40,957 nucleotides of DNA from a virus (taxonomy: Duplodnaviria; Heunggongvirae; Uroviricota; Caudoviricetes), in the IMG/VR virus record IMGVR_UViG_2778261455_000003, positions 1-40,957 of that record; one strand, written 5' to 3'. Numbering within the stretch: position 1 is the first letter of the stretch; every line of letters begins with the position of its first letter. Of the stretch, positions 10,388-28,293 are shown piece by piece. The translations under genes and the position numbers were made by a program. The notes under the pieces are model-generated. The model was not told the DNA's origin. It searched no databases and was given only the letters and a program-made list of their open reading frames with translations.

Positions 10388-11104
10388 TCAAACCAGCCTT
10401 AGTTTTGTCTCAATTGCAACGCCTATAATCTTGCAGTTTCCATTGATTGGCACGAGAGGCCATGCAGGATTAAGTCCCTTGAGGTATTTATTTCCGCCGT
10501 CGATTATCAGCTTCTTGAATGTTGCTTCGTTAGAGTCAGAAAGTTTTGCTATGACCAAGCTGCCGTTGATCGCCTCCCTTCCGGTATCGAAAAGAACGAA
10601 TGTCCCCTCTGGGATGCTTAACCCAACCGGTGCCGTCATTGAATCACCTTCCACTTTAAGCCAGAACGCATTACCTTGAATATGCGCGTCAGACTCAAGC
10701 CAAACATCTATGTCTTTAATGGTGTATGGTTCGCATGCTTCACACCACGAGCCAGCCTGGATACTGCTTAACACCGGATACCTCTTTCCTGCTCTGTATT
10801 CCCCTGCATACCTTACGTTGGCATCGCTCTTAAGGCTTTCTGCCTGTTCTGCAACCTTGGCAGCAATTGACTGGCTAAAATCAGCAATTGAGACTTGCAA
10901 CAAACGTGCAAAACCAGATGCGACCTCAACGTTTAGCGCGTTTCTGCCATTAAGATAATGCCCTACCGCTCCTTGGGTGATACCCAGTTCATCAGCGATT
11001 GAGTATTGGGTTATTCCCAATTCTTTCTTTTTTGACTCATACAAAGCCTTAAGCCGCTTAGCGTCTTCGAGCTGTTCTGTCGTCAGTGATTTTTTATTTT
11101 CCAT
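10388..11104 (-). CDS. cI: CI-type prophage repressor (HTH plus LexA-like S24 domain)
   Basis: 238-aa ORF; N-terminus …LTTEQLEDAKRLKALYESKKKELGITQ…, similar to lambda cI …[27 protein letters not shown]…; C-terminal GDSMTAP / FKKLI motifs. Confidence 0.9.
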   Translation of the reverse strand: MENKKSLTTEQLEDAKRLKALYESKKKELGITQYSIADELGITQGAVGHYLNGRNALNVEVASGFARLLQVSIADFSQSIAAKVAEQAESLKSDANVRYAGEYRAGKRYPVLSSIQAGSWCEACEPYTIKDIDVWLESDAHIQGNAFWLKVEGDSMTAPVGLSIPEGTFVLFDTGREAINGSLVIAKLSDSNEATFKKLIIDGGNKYLKGLNPAWPLVPINGNCKIIGVAIETKLRLV

Positions 11105-11210
11105 AGCTTAATTCTAATAGCTAAGGTACTTAAATTAAAAATACCCTGAGTATTGATTGCTTTGAATACCTGTAGTATTCTTTGTTCATGGTTAATAACG
11201 GAGAGTGCAT
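11105..11210. promoter_or_regulatory. OR region: candidate operators with divergent pRM and pR
   Basis: Inverted repeats AAATACCCTGAGTATT (11139..11154) and GAATACCTGTAGTATTC (11164..11180), same family as the OL repeats; plus-strand -35 TTGATT and -10 TATTCT (17-bp spacer) overlap them ahead of cro. Confidence 0.55.
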
Positions 11211-11405
11211 ATGATTCGAATGACACTTGCCGATTACGCCAAAATCCATGGACAGGCTAAAGCAGCCAGTGACTTTGGTGTAATCCAGTGCGCTATCAGC
11301 AAGGCCATTCTGGCAGGCCGTAACATCATGGTTACGGTAAAGCCTGATGGCAGTGTGATTGGAGAGGAAGTTCGTCCTTTCCCAAGCAACAAGAAAAACA
11401 AATAG
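11211..11405 (+). CDS. cro: Cro-type repressor
   Basis: ATG after [71 protein letters not shown] resembles lambda Cro. Confidence 0.85.
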
Positions 11406-11513: not shown

Positions 11514-11792
11514 ATGGAACTTACAAGTGCTCGCAAGAAAGCGAATGCAATTACAAGCAACATCCTGAATCGAATTGCTGTACGTGGTCAGCGAAAGGTT
11601 GCCGACGCGTTAGGGATTAATGAATCGCAAATTTCGCGATGGAAAGACAGCTTCATCCCAAAAATGGGAATGCTTCTGGCTGTTCTTGAATGGGGTGTTG
11701 AAGACGAGGAGTTGGCGGAACTGGCTAAGAAAGTAGCCAGAATGCTGACAAAAGAAAAAGCCCCGAAGAACGGCGAATTCTTCGAGGCCTGA
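11514..11792 (+). CDS. cII: CII-type transcriptional activator
   Basis: 92-aa ORF; …QISRWKDSFIPKMGMLLAVLEWGVEDEELAELAKKVARMLT resembles lambda cII …QISRWKRDWIPKFSMLLAVLEWGVVDDDMARLARQVAAILT. Confidence 0.8.
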   Translation: MELTSARKKANAITSNILNRIAVRGQRKVADALGINESQISRWKDSFIPKMGMLLAVLEWGVEDEELAELAKKVARMLTKEKAPKNGEFFEA

Positions 11793-11826
11793 TGTAGAAA
11801 GACTGGATCAATCCACAGGAGTCATT

Positions 11827-12672
11827 ATGACAAATACAGCAAAAATACTCAACTTCGGCAGAGGTAACTTTGCCGAACAGGAGCGAAGAGTGGCTGATAT
11901 CGATGATGGTTACACCAGATTCGCTAACGAGCTGCTGGAAGCTATCGCAAGTGCCGATTTAACCGCTCGCCAGTTGAAAGTTATGCTGGCCTACGTCCGG
12001 AAAACATATGGATTCAATAAGAAAACAGATCGAATAGCCGATGAGCAAATTGCTCAGTTAACAGGACTATCAAGGCAGAATGTTAACAAGGCTAAAAAAG
12101 AACTGATTTCAATGAATTGCCTGTTTATGGATGGAAATAAAATCGGTGTAAACAGGGAGGTATCTGCGTGGCAATTCAGCAAGTGTCTCCAAGTTAGCAA
12201 CTTTGTCTCGAAGTTAGAGACAAAAAATGTCTCTAAATTAGAGACACTCAATGTCTCGAAGTTAGAGACACACAAAAGACATTCTTTAAAGACAAAAGAA
12301 AATATTAATAAACCCCCTATATCCCCCAAAAAAGTTTCTCAGAAGTTCGACCCGCTAGAAACAGAGTTGCCTGATTGGTTATCAGCAGAAACATGGTTGT
12401 CTTGGGTTACCTATCGCAAGGAGATAGGTAAGTCGATCAAGTCTAAGCAAAGTGTCACTCAGGCTATCAACGTTCTAAGCAGAAGTCTGGAGAAGGGATA
12501 TACACCTGAAGAAATTATAAACCAGAGCATCGCCAGTGGTTGGCAGGGGATTTTTGAGCCCAAGACTCCAAAGGGGAAACCTCAACCTAGGCCGCAGCAT
12601 CGAGCTATGCAGGAAAACTTTGCCGCCAAAGATTACGGACAAACTGAAATGCCTTCATGGGCGCAGGAGTGA
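11827..12672 (+). CDS. O: Replication initiator, lambda O type
   Basis: 281-aa ORF; N-terminus MTNTAKILNFGRGNFAEQERRVADIDDGY… near-identical to the lambda O N-terminus; iterons lie inside the gene. Confidence 0.85.
   Translation: MTNTAKILNFGRGNFAEQERRVADIDDGYTRFANELLEAIASADLTARQLKVMLAYVRKTYGFNKKTDRIADEQIAQLTGLSRQNVNKAKKELISMNCLFMDGNKIGVNREVSAWQFSKCLQVSNFVSKLETKNVSKLETLNVSKLETHKRHSLKTKENINKPPISPKKVSQKFDPLETELPDWLSAETWLSWVTYRKEIGKSIKSKQSVTQAINVLSRSLEKGYTPEEIINQSIASGWQGIFEPKTPKGKPQPRPQHRAMQENFAAKDYGQTEMPSWAQE
12184..12270. repeat. Replication-origin iterons inside O
   Basis: Three perfect 19-bp palindromic copies of TGTCTC(G/T)AA(G/A)TTAGAGACA at 12204, 12228 and 12252 (24-bp phasing), plus a degenerate copy at 12184, followed by an AT-rich tract. 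Confidence 0.6.
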
Positions 12673-12674
12673 AT

Positions 12675-13568
12675 ATGAATACGACAAATGGTTACAATCT
12701 GGCACTGCAAAGGCAACTTGTAGACTCAAAAATCAATGACATTTCTGATCTGAAACAGAAACTTGAGTTTAGCAAAATTGGATCAGCATCAGATGGAATG
12801 TCAGTTACCAGCACGGTGGAAGAGTGCGAGAAACACGGTAAATATACTTCCTATGAGAAATATCTGACCATCTCAGGAAAAAGAATTACTTCAAGTAAAT
12901 CTGAGTGCCCACAGTGCCTTGAGGAGAAAATTCGTAAGAAAGAGATTGAACGTGAGCAGGCAGAACAAAGAGCAAGACAATCAAAAATTGAATATTTGTT
13001 GAATTCTCTCAATATTCCAGAGAGGTTCAAAAATTGCACTCTTCAGAATTATGAGCCTGTTAACGATGATGCAAAGCGAGTTCTTAAGGTATGCCAGGCA
13101 TATGCCAGTAAGTGGCCTGAACGCCTTCAAAAAGGTGGCGGACTGGTCATGTGTGGTAAGCCTGGAACTGGAAAGAACCACCTTGCACTGGCTATCGCTA
13201 GGCACGCCATTATCGAGCATCAAAGCTCTGTGATATTTACCACTGCGTTGAAAATTGCCAGAGAGTACAAATCAACATGGTCTAAGGCCGCAACCAGAAC
13301 TGAAGAAGAAGTCATTAGGCAATTTACGCATCCTGACTTGTTAATAATCGATGAGGTTGGCGTGCAGTTCGGCAGTGATGCTGAAAAGCTAATCATGTTC
13401 GAAATTATCAACACCAGATATGAATACATGAAGCCAACAATCCTGATTAGCAACCAGAGCAAAGATGAACTGTCTGCATTCATTGGTGAGCGTGTTATTG
13501 ACAGGATGAATGATGGCGGCGGGTGCACTCTTGCGTTTACATGGGATAGTTACAGGAGCAGATCGTGA
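12675..13568 (+). CDS. DnaC/IstB-like AAA+ helicase loader
   Basis: Walker A motif GKPGTGKNHLA and Walker B LLIIDEVG; N-terminal Cys/His cluster; ATG after GGAGTGA overlapping the O stop; takes the place of lambda P. Confidence 0.8.
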   Translation: MNTTNGYNLALQRQLVDSKINDISDLKQKLEFSKIGSASDGMSVTSTVEECEKHGKYTSYEKYLTISGKRITSSKSECPQCLEEKIRKKEIEREQAEQRARQSKIEYLLNSLNIPERFKNCTLQNYEPVNDDAKRVLKVCQAYASKWPERLQKGGGLVMCGKPGTGKNHLALAIARHAIIEHQSSVIFTTALKIAREYKSTWSKAATRTEEEVIRQFTHPDLLIIDEVGVQFGSDAEKLIMFEIINTRYEYMKPTILISNQSKDELSAFIGERVIDRMNDGGGCTLAFTWDSYRSRS

Positions 13569-20028: not shown

Positions 20029-20467
20029 TAGCGATAATTTTACTCATCATCCTTCACATCTGGCTCTGTAGACAGGGTGGTGATCACTTCTGGAGTGAAT
20101 CCAGATTAAACATCTCATTGCTGATGCTTGATATTGAGCATCTTGCGCGCGGTAAGGGGCTGCGTTGAGATAAGAGCCAGTTCATTACAAAGCCTATCTA
20201 CGGGTGGGCTTGATAATGAAACCAAAATTTATTCTGGGTAACCAGTTACGGCAGTACAGCGAAACAACCCAAGCCAGAAAGTGGGGAAATAACACTGGCA
20301 GCCACTGAAAGATGAACCTCCAGCCTTATGGCTAAAAAGATTCTTTGTGGTGGCGGACTGATGGAAAGACATCGGATAGAATCAAGCAGTGGCTAGGGTA
20401 GCTCCCGAAAAGCGGACTCGTCACCGCCTGCCACTGAATCTATGGCGAACAACTAGACGAGGTTGTG

Positions 20468-26209: not shown

Positions 26210-27504
26210 TGGCATTAAATGAAGGTCAACTGGTCACGTATGCTCTGGATGAAATCATCGAAACCGTCCAGAACCTGACGCCAATGGCGTCCAAAGTGAC
26301 AAAATACACCCCTCCGGCAGAATCCATGCAGCGTTCAAGCAACACCGTGTGGATGCCTGTTGAGCAGGAAGCGCCAACCCAGACTGGCTGGGATTTAACT
26401 GGCAACGCAACCGGGATTCTGGAACTCTCCGTGAAATGCAACATGGGCGATCCGGATAACGATTTCTTCGAGCTTCGTGCAGATGACCTGCGTGATGAGC
26501 GTTCTTACCGTCGTCGCATCCAGGCATCCGCCAAAAAACTGGCGAATAACATTGAGTCAGCAATTGCAAAACAGGCAACTGAAATGGGCTCGCTTGTTGT
26601 TCACGATACCCGCGCAATTGGTCCATCTACTGGCCTGTCTGGCTGGGATTTTGTGTCTGATGCAGAGCGCCTGATGTTCTCCCGTGAGCTAAACCGCGAT
26701 ATGGGCATCAGTTACTTCCTGAACCCTGACGATTACCGCAAAGCAGGCCGCAACCTGGTAGATGGTGACATCTTCGGGCGCGTTACTGAAGACGCGTATC
26801 ACAACGGTACTATTCAGCGTCAGATTGCTGGCTTTGATGAAATTCTTCGCTCACCGAAACTTCCCGCAGTTACCAAGTCAACCGCTACTGGTGTAACTGT
26901 TTCTGGTGCGCAGAAGTTTAAGCCGCAGGCATACACCCTTGATACCGATGGTAACAAAGAGAACGTCGATAACCGTGTTGCAACGGTGACCGTATCCTCC
27001 ACCACCGGATTTAAGCGCGGCGACAAAATCAGCTTCACTGGTGTGAAATTCCTGTCTCAGATGGCGAAGAACGTGCTGACTGATGATGCGACTTTCTCAA
27101 TCACCCGTGTGATCGATGGTACTCACATCGAAATCACGCCGAAGCCGATTGCGCTGGATGACGCATCACTGACAAAAGAAGAGAAGGCTTACGCTAACGT
27201 AAACACCTCTCTTGCTGATACCACTCCGGTAAACGTTCTGAACGTGGCAACAACCACCGCTAACGTGTTCTGGGCTGATGACTCAATCCGCCTGCTGTCT
27301 CAGCCGATCCCGGTAACCCATGAACTGTTTGCTGGCATGAAAACGTCTTCCTTCAGCATTCCTGGTATTGGTGTTAACGGCATCTTCGCAACGCAGGGCG
27401 ATATCAACACTCTGTCTGGTAAGTGCCGTATTGCTGTGTGGTATTCAGCATGTGCTGTACGACCAGAGGCAATTGGTGTTGGTCTGCCTAACCAGACTGC
27501 GTGA
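26209..27504 (+). CDS. Major coat protein, P22 gp5 type
   Basis: 431-aa [32 protein letters not shown]…[13 protein letters not shown]…GVGLPNQTA resembles P22 coat protein. Confidence 0.9.
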
Positions 27505-27548
27505 TAACCAGAGGGAGCTTCGGCTCCCTTTTTTATCTGGAGACAAGC

Positions 27549-27792
<244 letters not shown>

Positions 27793-27815
<23 letters not shown>

Positions 27816-28293
27816 TTTAGTTCTTGCGGCATTACGTAAGCTCGGTGTGGCATCAAATGCCACGTTAACCGATATCGAACCGCAGTCTATGGAAGACGGC
27901 GTCAACGACCTTGAAATGATGATGGCTGAATGGCTTGGTGGTGATGTGTCACCTGGCATCAACGTTGGCTACATTTTTGCTGATGCAGATATCGCTCCGG
28001 ATCCGGGAGATGAGCACGGCTTATCAAATAACGCTATCAATGCCGTCATTTTCAACCTTGCCTGCCGCATTGCTCCAGATTATGCGCTGGAAGCGTCTGC
28101 AAAACTTATAACCACTGCCAGATACGGGAAAGAGCGACTCGTCAAACTGTCTGCAATGGACAGAGCAAAAGCCGCTAAATGTAAGTCCGGTTATCCAAAC
28201 CGTATGCCTGTTGGTAGCGGTAACCAGTTGGCGAAGTGGAACGGTTGGAGTTACTTCCACCGGAAGGAACCTTGCGATAACGGGAGCGAATAA
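27793..28293 (+). CDS. Head completion / tail accessory protein, P22 gp4 type
   Basis: Internal [36 protein letters not shown]… resembles P22 gp4 ([33 protein letters not shown]…); the longer track ORF starts in the repeat. Confidence 0.8.

What the first reader, a model, noticed from the sequence alone, without database searches (positions are those of the whole stretch)
12184..12270. Palindromic iterons with 24-bp phasing inside the O gene
Three perfect 19-bp palindromes plus one degenerate copy, followed by an AT-rich tract, sit in the middle of O. They encode a repeated VSKLET peptide in the O linker, the same origin-inside-initiator layout as ori-lambda but with a different iteron sequence.
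Basis: partly seen in the sequence, partly recalled or inferred. Interest (0 to 1): 0.4.

Follow-up and report, generated by a model that had tools for sequence, protein, structure and literature searches.

The report
Lambda-type replication origin inside gene O
The repeats are almost certainly this lambda-like phage's replication origin, built like the textbook lambda origin but with a different, so far undescribed binding-site sequence for its own initiator; this is expected for such phages, not surprising.

Summary
There are four 19-bp sites at 12184, 12204, 12228 and 12252, spaced 20, 24 and 24 bp. All share the left arm TGTCTC. Three have the right arm GAGACA. Only one (12228-12246) is a perfect palindrome, two have 8 of 9 symmetric pairs, and the first has a decayed right arm. 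An 81% A+T tract follows at 12271-12312.

The array lies in the linker of a Phage_rep_O initiator gene (11827-12672), at the same codons and with nearly the same spacing as the four iterons of ori-lambda. It is followed by the same CACAAAAGACA junction as in lambda.

In relatives found by protein similarity alone, synonymous codon positions in the arms are frozen, while the inner 7 bp, the spacers and the encoded peptide drift. Iteron sequence switches class together with the predicted recognition helix of O in 72 non-redundant loci.

I conclude that this is the phage's origin, read by its own O protein, with a DnaC-like loader encoded downstream. Binding and replication were not tested. It is a new member of a well-known kind: the class (GTCTC-N7-GAGAC) is unannotated and absent from the searched literature, but the architecture is textbook. 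Interest is low.

The parts
11827..12672 (+). Gene O: replication initiator, 281 aa, which contains the origin
   Evidence: ORF. Pfam Phage_rep_O matches aa 21-115, E 4.6e-36. The gene is 98.7% identical to the gene annotated 'DNA replication protein O' in phage mEpX1.
11887..12171 (+). N-terminal origin-binding domain of O (aa 21-115)
   Evidence: Pfam PF04492 covers it at full length. It is conserved at 65% identity or more in all relatives that carry GTCTC-type iterons, while the C-terminal domains differ.
12064..12099 (+). Inferred recognition helix of O (GLSRQNVNKAKK, aa 80-91)
   Evidence: This is an inference. It rests on a weak phmmer alignment (E 0.08-0.11) to the winged helix-turn-helix domain of CRP/FNR regulators, which places SRQNVNKA on their recognition helix. 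The segment is essentially invariant in 55 GTCTC-class loci and differs in each other iteron class.
12184..12202 (.). Iteron 1, degenerate: left arm TGTCTC intact, right arm GCAACT
   Evidence: It is conserved in this decayed form in close relatives. At the same position it is a full palindrome, AGTCTCCAAAAACGAGACA, in distant ones (L115, L121, L122). It aligns with lambda iteron 1.
12204..12222 (.). Iteron 2, TGTCTCGAAGTTAGAGACA (8 of 9 symmetric pairs)
12228..12246 (.). Iteron 3, TGTCTCTAAATTAGAGACA (the only perfect palindrome)
   Evidence: The T at 12234 is C in every relative found by the DNA-pattern scan.
12252..12270 (.). Iteron 4, TGTCTCGAAGTTAGAGACA (8 of 9 symmetric pairs)
12271..12312 (.). 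AT-rich tract, the presumed DNA-unwinding region
   Evidence: 81% A+T and 60% A on the top strand. It begins with CACAAAAGACA, as in lambda directly after iteron 4. CACAAAAGA is invariant in all iteron classes aligned and at synonymous sites.
12331..12669 (+). C-terminal domain of O, the presumed partner-recruiting domain
   Evidence: No Pfam match. Relatives that keep the same N-domain and iterons have other, unalignable sequences here, and the downstream gene changes with it.
12657..13568 (+). DnaC/IstB-like AAA+ helicase-loader gene, overlapping the end of O
   Evidence: Pfam IstB_IS21 E 1.3e-18 and Bac_DnaA E 1.7e-07. Annotated as a DnaC-like helicase loader in mEpX1 and Bas106.

Best explanation
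The segment 12184-12312 is the phage's origin of replication, of the ori-lambda type, embedded in the linker-coding part of its own initiator gene O.

Proposed mechanism:
1. O is made from the rightward early transcript (cro-cII-O).
2. Dimers of its N-terminal winged-helix domain bind the dyad-symmetric sites. Each recognition helix (about aa 80-91) reads one GTCTC half-site. Iterons 2-4 are the strong sites and iteron 1 is a weak half-site.
3. The bound array bends or wraps the DNA (an 'O-some') and destabilises the adjacent A-rich tract 12271-12312.
4. The C-terminal domain of O recruits the DnaC-like loader encoded next door (12657-13568), which brings the host DnaB helicase to the opened DNA.

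Shown here by computation: the anatomy, the positional homology with ori-lambda, DNA-level selection on the arms and the junction, and co-variation of iteron class with the O N-domain.

Inferred from what is established for lambda: dimer binding, O-some formation, unwinding and helicase loading.
For: 1. Context. The ORF is a Phage_rep_O protein, preceded by cI, cro and cII and followed by a DnaC/IstB-like gene. The locus is 98.7% identical to lambdoid phage mEpX1.

2. Positional homology with ori-lambda. Lambda iterons start at O codon 117 with spacing 20/24/23. Here they start at codon 120 with spacing 20/24/24. Both arrays are followed directly by CACAAAAGACA and an A-rich tract.

3. More than chance: 3 sites against 0.14 expected, and the tract is in the 99.9th percentile for A+T.

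4. Specific to O genes. All 65 viral contigs that carry a double TGTCTC-N7-GAGACA array have it inside an O homologue. So do 13 of 14 genome hits. In the 14th the O frame is broken at a spacer with one extra A.

5. Selection on DNA, not on the peptide. I used 12 relatives found by N-domain protein similarity only. Third-codon positions are invariant at 6 of 8 arm codons and 3 of 3 junction codons, against 4 of 70 conserved codons of the N-domain (Fisher p = 2e-5 and 1.4e-7). Meanwhile the inner peptide residues change: K to S/N/E, L to S/P/A. Over 95 iterons, positions 2-6 (GTCTC) carry 1.9-2.0 bits and positions 14-18 (GAGAC) 1.5-2.0 bits, against 0.2-0.8 bits at positions 7, 10 and 11.

6. 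Co-variation with the initiator, over 72 non-redundant loci. The helix xLSRQNVNKAK goes with GTCTC/GAGAC (55 loci), NLPRQKVNKAK with GTCAC/GTGAC (1), GIHHTHVCKAK with TTAGCC/GCTAA (15), and lambda's KLPVKRCNEAK with TCCCTC/GAGGGA. The GTCTC to GTCAC switch is a symmetric change in both arms, as expected for a dimer site.

7. Modularity. The same N-domain and iterons are joined to different C-domains, each with a different downstream partner: DnaC-like, DnaB-like helicase, DUF6475, or lambda-P-like.

8. Background for lambda. The origin sits in the middle of O, O dimers bind 18-19-bp inverted repeats, an AT-rich unwinding region lies adjacent, and the linker peptide is dispensable (PMC7466680, PMC6022878).
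Against: - There is no experimental evidence for this phage or its close relatives. No paper in the library holds these iteron sequences, and the mEpX1, N7, Bas106 and Pocitis76 records annotate no origin.
- Only three full sites are present, and iteron 1 is half decayed.
- The window lacks the inverted repeat that lies right of the AT-rich tract in lambda and in some relatives. It has CCCCCTATATCCCCC instead.
- The recognition-helix assignment rests on a weak alignment (E about 0.1). The structure model was unusable (pLDDT 44.6).
- Iteron classes coincide with clades. The helix/iteron association is therefore not a set of independent events.
Confidence: 0.88

Rival explanations
1. The repeat is only a protein feature. 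It is a tandem 8-residue repeat (xNVSKLET) in a flexible linker of O, produced by slippage, and has no function as DNA.
For: The repeat is in frame with a period of 8 codons, and it lies in a linker between two domains. Copy number varies among relatives in 24-bp steps, from 2 to 5.
Against: - Synonymous positions in the arms are frozen: 6 of 8 against 4 of 70 elsewhere.
- The amino acids in the middle of the unit change freely.
- Iteron 1 is read in another frame (CLQVSN) yet keeps the TGTCTC arm.
- The dyad symmetry is kept across class switches.
- In lambda, in-frame deletions within the AT-rich part of ori leave O able to complement (PMC6022878).
Confidence: 0.03
2. The sites are bound by O but are not the active origin. 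They would serve in autoregulation, copy-number control or exclusion, or be a vestigial origin, while replication starts elsewhere.
For: Nothing positive was found. It cannot be excluded by sequence alone. Relatives with only two sites exist (L082), and iteron 1 is decayed here.
Against: - The adjacent AT-rich tract and the CACAAAAGA junction are conserved in every class, including at synonymous sites. This is expected for an unwinding element and not for an operator.
- No other TGTCTC-N7-GAGACA site exists in the 41-kb window.
- The layout matches the proven ori-lambda element by element.
Confidence: 0.06
3. The palindromes act as nucleic-acid hairpins (a terminator, an attenuator or a cruciform) independently of O.
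For: The single strand folds far better than shuffles (z = -6.8). The scan reports a terminator-like hairpin with a T-run on the minus strand at 12249->12225.
Against: - The fold score follows trivially from the palindromes.
- The stems are 6 bp with only 3 G-C pairs.
- All copies in one phage, and in all relatives of the class, share the same arm sequence rather than showing free compensatory variation.
- The A-run that gives the T-tail is not conserved: the spacers are AAATG, AAGAA or CGAAA in relatives.
- The extra pairing of iteron 3 depends on a T at 12234 that is unique to this window.
- No Rfam family matches here.
Confidence: 0.03

Closest known systems
ori-lambda (four iterons plus an AT-rich region inside gene O of phage lambda)
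   Same: - Host gene family is Phage_rep_O.
- The position in the linker matches: codon 117 in lambda, 120 here.
- Both have four sites of about 19 bp with dyad symmetry, spaced 20/24/23 in lambda and 20/24/24 here.
- The same CACAAAAGACA junction and an A-rich tract follow the last site.
- The first ~30 residues of O are nearly identical.
   Different: - The arms are TGTCTC/GAGACA instead of ATCCCTC/GAGGGAT.
- The N-domain is only about 51-59% identical and has a different recognition-helix segment.
- Iteron 1 is half decayed.
- There is no inverted repeat right of the AT tract.
- The partner is a DnaC-like AAA+ loader rather than lambda P.
Origins of Shiga-toxin phages (933W, P27), which have six lambda-type iterons
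   Same: The origin lies in the middle of O, and iteron copy number varies in frame-preserving steps (PMC7466680). Relatives of this window carry 2, 4 or 5 copies.
   Different: Stx phages keep the lambda iteron sequence and an O N-domain only about 59-60% identical to this one. Their similarity to the window at DNA level is limited to the first 93 bp of O.
Other lambdoid specificity classes found here: GTCAC-N7-GTGAC (L132) and CATTAGCC-N4-CAGCTAAT (L134-L149)
   Same: Architecture, spacing and the CACAAAAGA junction are identical. The N-domain is 62-64% identical.
   Different: The half-site sequence and the recognition-helix residues differ: S82P and N85K in L132, and HHTH..C in L134.
Iteron origins of theta plasmids (pSC101, R6K, F, P1, RK2)
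   Same: They also have repeated initiator-binding sites next to an AT-rich unwinding region.
   Different: From general knowledge, plasmid iterons are direct, asymmetric repeats. They are bound by monomers of Rep proteins with two winged-helix domains and usually lie outside the rep gene. Here the sites are palindromic, lie inside the initiator gene, and the initiator is Pfam Phage_rep_O.

Membership tests
Lambdoid (ori-lambda-type) replication origin | Lies inside the coding sequence of a Phage_rep_O-family initiator, between its N-terminal and C-terminal domains | tested here: met
   The array is at codons 120-148 of 281. Pfam PF04492 ends at aa 115.
Lambdoid (ori-lambda-type) replication origin | An array of about 18-19-bp sites with hyphenated dyad symmetry, spaced about 20-24 bp | tested here: met
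   Four sites, spaced 20/24/24. Three have perfect 6-bp arms and one is degenerate. Lambda spacing is 20/24/23.
Lambdoid (ori-lambda-type) replication origin | An AT-rich tract directly after the last iteron | tested here: met
   12271-12312 is 81% A+T, the 99.9th percentile. It is homologous to the lambda tract, sharing CACAAAAGACA.
Lambdoid (ori-lambda-type) replication origin | Iteron sequence is specific to, and co-inherited with, the N-terminal domain of the initiator | tested here: met
   The association between helix motif and iteron class is perfect over 72 non-redundant loci. C-domains are swapped independently. Caveat: the classes are clades.
Lambdoid (ori-lambda-type) replication origin | The sites are constrained as DNA, beyond the needs of the encoded peptide | tested here: met
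   Invariant synonymous positions: 6 of 8 in the arms and 3 of 3 at the junction, against 4 of 70 in the N-domain. p = 2e-5 and 1.4e-7.
Lambdoid (ori-lambda-type) replication origin | A gene for a helicase-recruiting partner lies immediately downstream of O | tested here: met
   A DnaC/IstB-like AAA+ gene at 12657-13568 overlaps the O stop codon.
Lambdoid (ori-lambda-type) replication origin | The initiator binds the iterons (footprint or gel shift) | not testable with these tools
   This needs purified O protein. No report was found.
Lambdoid (ori-lambda-type) replication origin | The segment supports O-dependent replication, and initiation maps to it | not testable with these tools
   This needs a plasmid replication assay or marker-frequency mapping.
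Plasmid-type iteron origin (Rep proteins with two winged-helix domains) | Direct, asymmetric repeats bound by Rep monomers, with an initiator of the plasmid Rep family | tested here: not met
   The sites are palindromic. The initiator matches only Phage_rep_O in Pfam.
Intrinsic terminator or structured RNA | A stable G+C-rich hairpin with a conserved T-run, or a match to an RNA family | tested here: not met
   There is one scan hit, on the minus strand only, with 3 G-C pairs. Its tail is not conserved in relatives. No Rfam match lies in the region.

The most novel reading that the evidence does not exclude
GTCTC-N7-GAGAC defines a separate, experimentally untouched replication-specificity class of lambdoid replicons, spread across Enterobacterales. 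Its nearest neighbour class (GTCAC-N7-GTGAC, locus L132) differs by one symmetric base pair per half-site and by a few residues of the recognition helix (S82P, N85K). The pair would then be a natural minimal switch of initiator-origin specificity, usable to work out how O reads its iterons and how new origin specificities arise.
Probability: 0.45. Interest if true: 0.35.

Novelty: new member of a known kind. Interest (0 to 1): 0.2.

Why it matters
The finding supplies the missing origin annotation for mEpX1/N7-like phages and for related prophages. These are present in 47 of 5426 complete E. coli genomes and in Pantoea, Erwinia, Proteus, Providencia, Morganella, Xenorhabdus and others.

It defines the consensus site (T/A)GTCTC-N7-GAGAC(A/T). 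It also points to the O residues that probably read that site.

This helps with predicting which lambdoid replicons share an origin-initiator specificity, with building orthogonal lambdoid plasmid replicons, and with studying how initiator and origin co-evolve. It does not change the picture of how such phages replicate.

Tried and rejected
- **First wobble-site test.** It used loci found through the iteron pattern itself, so arm invariance was partly built in. I repeated it on loci found by N-domain protein similarity only and report that result.
- **Structure of the O N-domain.** The single-sequence AlphaFold2 model had pLDDT 44.6 and pTM 0.28. It is unusable, so no fold search was run. I ran no further search on building a deeper alignment, because the verdict does not depend on it.
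- **Solved structures.** No real relative was found by sequence or by profile. The only hits were weak ones to CRP/FNR winged-helix domains (E about 0.1), used only as a hint for the position of the helix.
- **Rfam.** Nothing at the locus.
- **Literature.** No paper holds any of the 19-mers. Papers that mention mEpX1 do not discuss its origin.
- **Terminator-like hit on the minus strand at iteron 3.** Rejected as a by-product of the palindrome plus an unconserved A-run.
- **Strong single-strand fold.** Uninformative, because it follows from the palindromes.
- **Two scripts failed on regular-expression errors** and were rerun.

Full report
**What is in the sequence**

The window carries a lambdoid early-right region. 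It reads: a cI-type repressor (10388-11104, minus strand), cro (11205-11405), cII (11514-11792), a 281-codon ORF (11827-12672), and an overlapping 303-codon ORF (12657-13568).

Pfam assigns these as follows:
- Peptidase_S24/HTH_3 for the repressor.
- Cro and Phage_CII for the next two.
- Phage_rep_O for aa 21-115 of the 281-codon ORF (E 4.6e-36).
- IstB_IS21/Bac_DnaA for the last ORF, which is therefore a DnaC-like AAA+ loader.

The O gene is 98.6-98.7% identical to those of the E. coli phages mEpX1, N7 and CurroJimenez_Bas106. None of the four related records I examined (mEpX1, N7, Bas106 and Hafnia phage Pocitis76) annotates an origin.

**Checking the observation**

There are four 19-bp units, starting at 12184, 12204, 12228 and 12252, spaced 20, 24 and 24 bp.
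- Units 2-4 have perfect 6-bp arms, TGTCTC...GAGACA, around a 7-bp centre.
- Only unit 3 (TGTCTCTAAATTAGAGACA) is a perfect palindrome.
- Units 2 and 4 (TGTCTCGAAGTTAGAGACA) have 8 of 9 symmetric pairs.
- Unit 1 (TGTCTCCAAGTTAGCAACT) has an intact left arm and a decayed right arm.

So 'three perfect 19-bp palindromes' is overstated. The rest of the description holds:
- The motif, allowing one mismatch, occurs three times in the window and only here. The expectation is 0.14, and none of 100 shuffles reached three.
- The tract 12271-12312 that follows is 81% A+T (99.9th percentile) and 60% A on the top strand.
- The encoded peptide is FVSKLETKNVSKLETLNVSKLET.
- Unit 1 is read in a different frame (CLQVSN) because its spacing is 20 bp rather than 24.

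**Comparison with ori-lambda**

In the lambda record the four annotated iterons start at O codons 117, 123, 131 and 139, with spacing 20, 24 and 23 bp. They are followed directly by CACAAAAGACACTATTACAAAAGAAAAAAGAAAAG.

In the window the units start at codon 120 with spacing 20/24/24. They are followed by CACAAAAGACATTCTTTAAAGACAAAAGAAAAT.

A multiple alignment of the window, lambda and four other O genes puts the four sites of each in register. The block ACACAAAAGA after the last site is invariant. The array is therefore the positional homologue of the lambda iterons with a different half-site sequence, and the AT-rich tract is homologous to lambda's.

**Is the DNA, rather than the peptide, under selection?**

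A scan of viral contigs for two adjacent TGTCTC-N7-GAGACA units found 65 loci, and in all 65 the array lies inside an O homologue. That set is biased for this question, so I collected relatives by N-domain protein similarity only. This gave 80 loci, 58-100% identical.

Every locus with an N-domain at least 65% identical has (T/A)GTCTC-N7-GAGAC(A/T) units at the same place. Information content over 95 units from 33 distinct arrays:

| Positions | Sequence | Information |
|---|---|---|
| 2-6 | GTCTC | 1.9-2.0 bits |
| 14-18 | GAGAC | 1.5-2.0 bits |
| 7, 10, 11 | variable centre | 0.2-0.8 bits |

In a codon alignment of 12 such sequences I counted invariant third-codon positions:

| Region | Invariant third positions | Fisher p vs N-domain |
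|---|---|---|
| Arm codons | 6 of 8 | 2e-5 |
| His-Lys-Arg junction codons | 3 of 3 | 1.4e-7 (arms and junction together) |
| Conserved codons of the N-domain | 4 of 70 | reference |

Meanwhile the middle residues of the peptide change freely: K to S/N/E and L to S/P/A. This is the signature of a DNA site. It agrees with the report that lambda O tolerates in-frame deletions within the AT-rich part of the ori-encoded linker (PMC6022878).

**Who reads the sites?**

Below about 65% N-domain identity the iteron sequence changes class, while the architecture and the CACAAAAGA junction stay the same. L132 has TGTCAC-N7-GTGACA, a symmetric change in both arms. L134-L149 have CATTAGCC-N4-CAGCTAAT. Lambda has ATCCCTC-N5-GAGGGAT.

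The O segment corresponding to aa 80-90 changes with it, over 72 non-redundant loci:

| O segment (aa 80-90) | Iteron class | Loci |
|---|---|---|
| GLSRQNVNKAK (conservative variants in 4 loci) | GTCTC / GAGAC | 55 |
| GIHHTHVCKAK | TTAGCC / GCTAA | 15 |
| NLPRQKVNKAK | GTCAC / GTGAC | 1 |
| KLPVKRCNEAK (lambda) | TCCCTC / GAGGGA | 1 |

A weak alignment (E about 0.1) to the winged helix-turn-helix domain of CRP/FNR regulators places SRQNVNKA on their recognition helix. I therefore infer that this helix reads the GTCTC half-site, one per subunit of a dimer.

Two caveats apply. The classes are clades, so the association is not a count of independent events. The helix assignment is not backed by a structure: the single-sequence model was unusable and no solved relative exists.

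**Modularity**

The same N-domain and iterons are fused to C-terminal domains that do not align with one another. Each comes with a different downstream gene:
- DnaC/IstB-like loader: the window, L002, L007, L016, L061.
- DnaB-like helicase: L052, L055.
- A DUF6475 protein: L044.
- A lambda-P-like protein: Proteus phage Pm34.

This is the classical two-module organisation of O. The N-terminus goes with the origin, and the C-terminus goes with the helicase-recruiting partner (PMC6022878).

**Mechanism proposed**

O dimers bind iterons 2-4 strongly and iterons 1 weakly. The array distorts the DNA and opens the adjacent A-rich tract. The C-domain of O then recruits the DnaC-like loader, and with it the host DnaB.

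The steps after binding are taken from what is established for lambda (PMC7466680 and PMC6022878). They are inference for this phage.

**Rivals**

- *A purely protein-level repeat.* Contradicted by the synonymous-site result and by unit 1 keeping the arm in another reading frame.
- *Hairpin functions.* The strong single-strand fold (z = -6.8) and the terminator-like hit on the minus strand at unit 3 follow from the palindromes. The A-run that forms the tail is not conserved, and neither is the T at 12234 that perfects the stem.
- *O-binding sites that are not the active origin.* This cannot be excluded without experiments. It does not explain the conserved unwinding tract.

**Distribution and novelty**

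- The origin segment occurs in 47 of 5426 complete E. coli genomes, always chromosomal.
- The class is found in species representatives of Pantoea, Erwinia, Tatumella, Dryocola, Providencia, Proteus, Morganella, Xenorhabdus and Arsenophonus.
- Among deposited phages it is confined to three mEpX1 records, N7, Bas106 and Hafnia phage Pocitis76. I read GTCTC-type iterons directly in Proteus phage Pm34. Morganella phage IME1369_01 is a likely member on N-domain identity (72%), but I did not read its iterons.
- Among the named phages listed in the protein searches, lambda, Stx phages, the P22-like ST104 and several HK and mEp phages fall below 60% N-domain identity.
- No paper in the library contains the 19-mers.

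It is thus an undescribed specificity class of a thoroughly known kind of origin. The result is useful for annotation and as a possible model for initiator-origin co-evolution, but it would not surprise a specialist.

Noticed in passing
window 11758-11852, minus strand: A promoter-like site (TTGAGT-17-CATAAT with TG, 11852->11824) and a strong terminator-like hairpin with a T-run (11790->11758) lie antisense across the cII/O junction. This is the layout of lambda pO and the oop antisense RNA (lambda layout from PMC6022878).
   Followed up: partly
window 20386-20448, plus strand: This is the only Rfam match in the window above the gathering score: int-alpA RNA, 45.1 bits, E 2.8e-06.
   Followed up: no
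window 27694-27745: The hexamer CAGAGC is repeated 8.7 times at 97% match, inside overlapping ORFs (27300-27962 minus strand, 27688-28293 plus strand).
   Followed up: no
window 12234: The T here makes iteron 3 the only perfect palindrome. All relatives found by the DNA-pattern scan have C at this position (TGTCTCCAAATTAGAGACA).
   Followed up: yes
L082; L006, L015, L027, L048 (= L073, L087, L090); L017/L077: Iteron copy number differs among near-identical O genes: 2 sites (L082), 4 (most) or 5. The difference is always a multiple of 24 bp, so the O frame is kept. L017/L077 has three identical copies, which suggests recombination between the repeats.
   Followed up: partly
L128 near 1830; L163 (Morganella psychrotolerans DSM 17886) 1323-1373: The spacer between iterons 2 and 3 has one extra A (GACTAAAAAAAGTCTC). 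This gives 25-bp spacing and a frameshift inside O. It could be a defective prophage, a sequencing error at the A-run, or slippage. The two records may be the same genome.
   Followed up: no
window 12313-12327; relatives L102, L106, L109, L123-L129, L150; L107, L115, L134: The sequence right of the AT-rich tract varies. The window has CCCCCTATATCCCCC. Some relatives have the lambda-like inverted repeat TCGTCCGAGAATTCTGACGAATCCTCTGAC. Others have a CCCCC...GGGGG palindrome. Whether this element matters for origin function is open.
   Followed up: no
L044, L052, L055, L061, L150 (genes downstream of O): One origin/N-domain module is combined with four kinds of downstream replication partner: DnaC-like, DnaB-like helicase, DUF6475, and lambda-P-like. 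DUF6475 sits in the helicase-loader position and may be an uncharacterised loader.
   Followed up: partly
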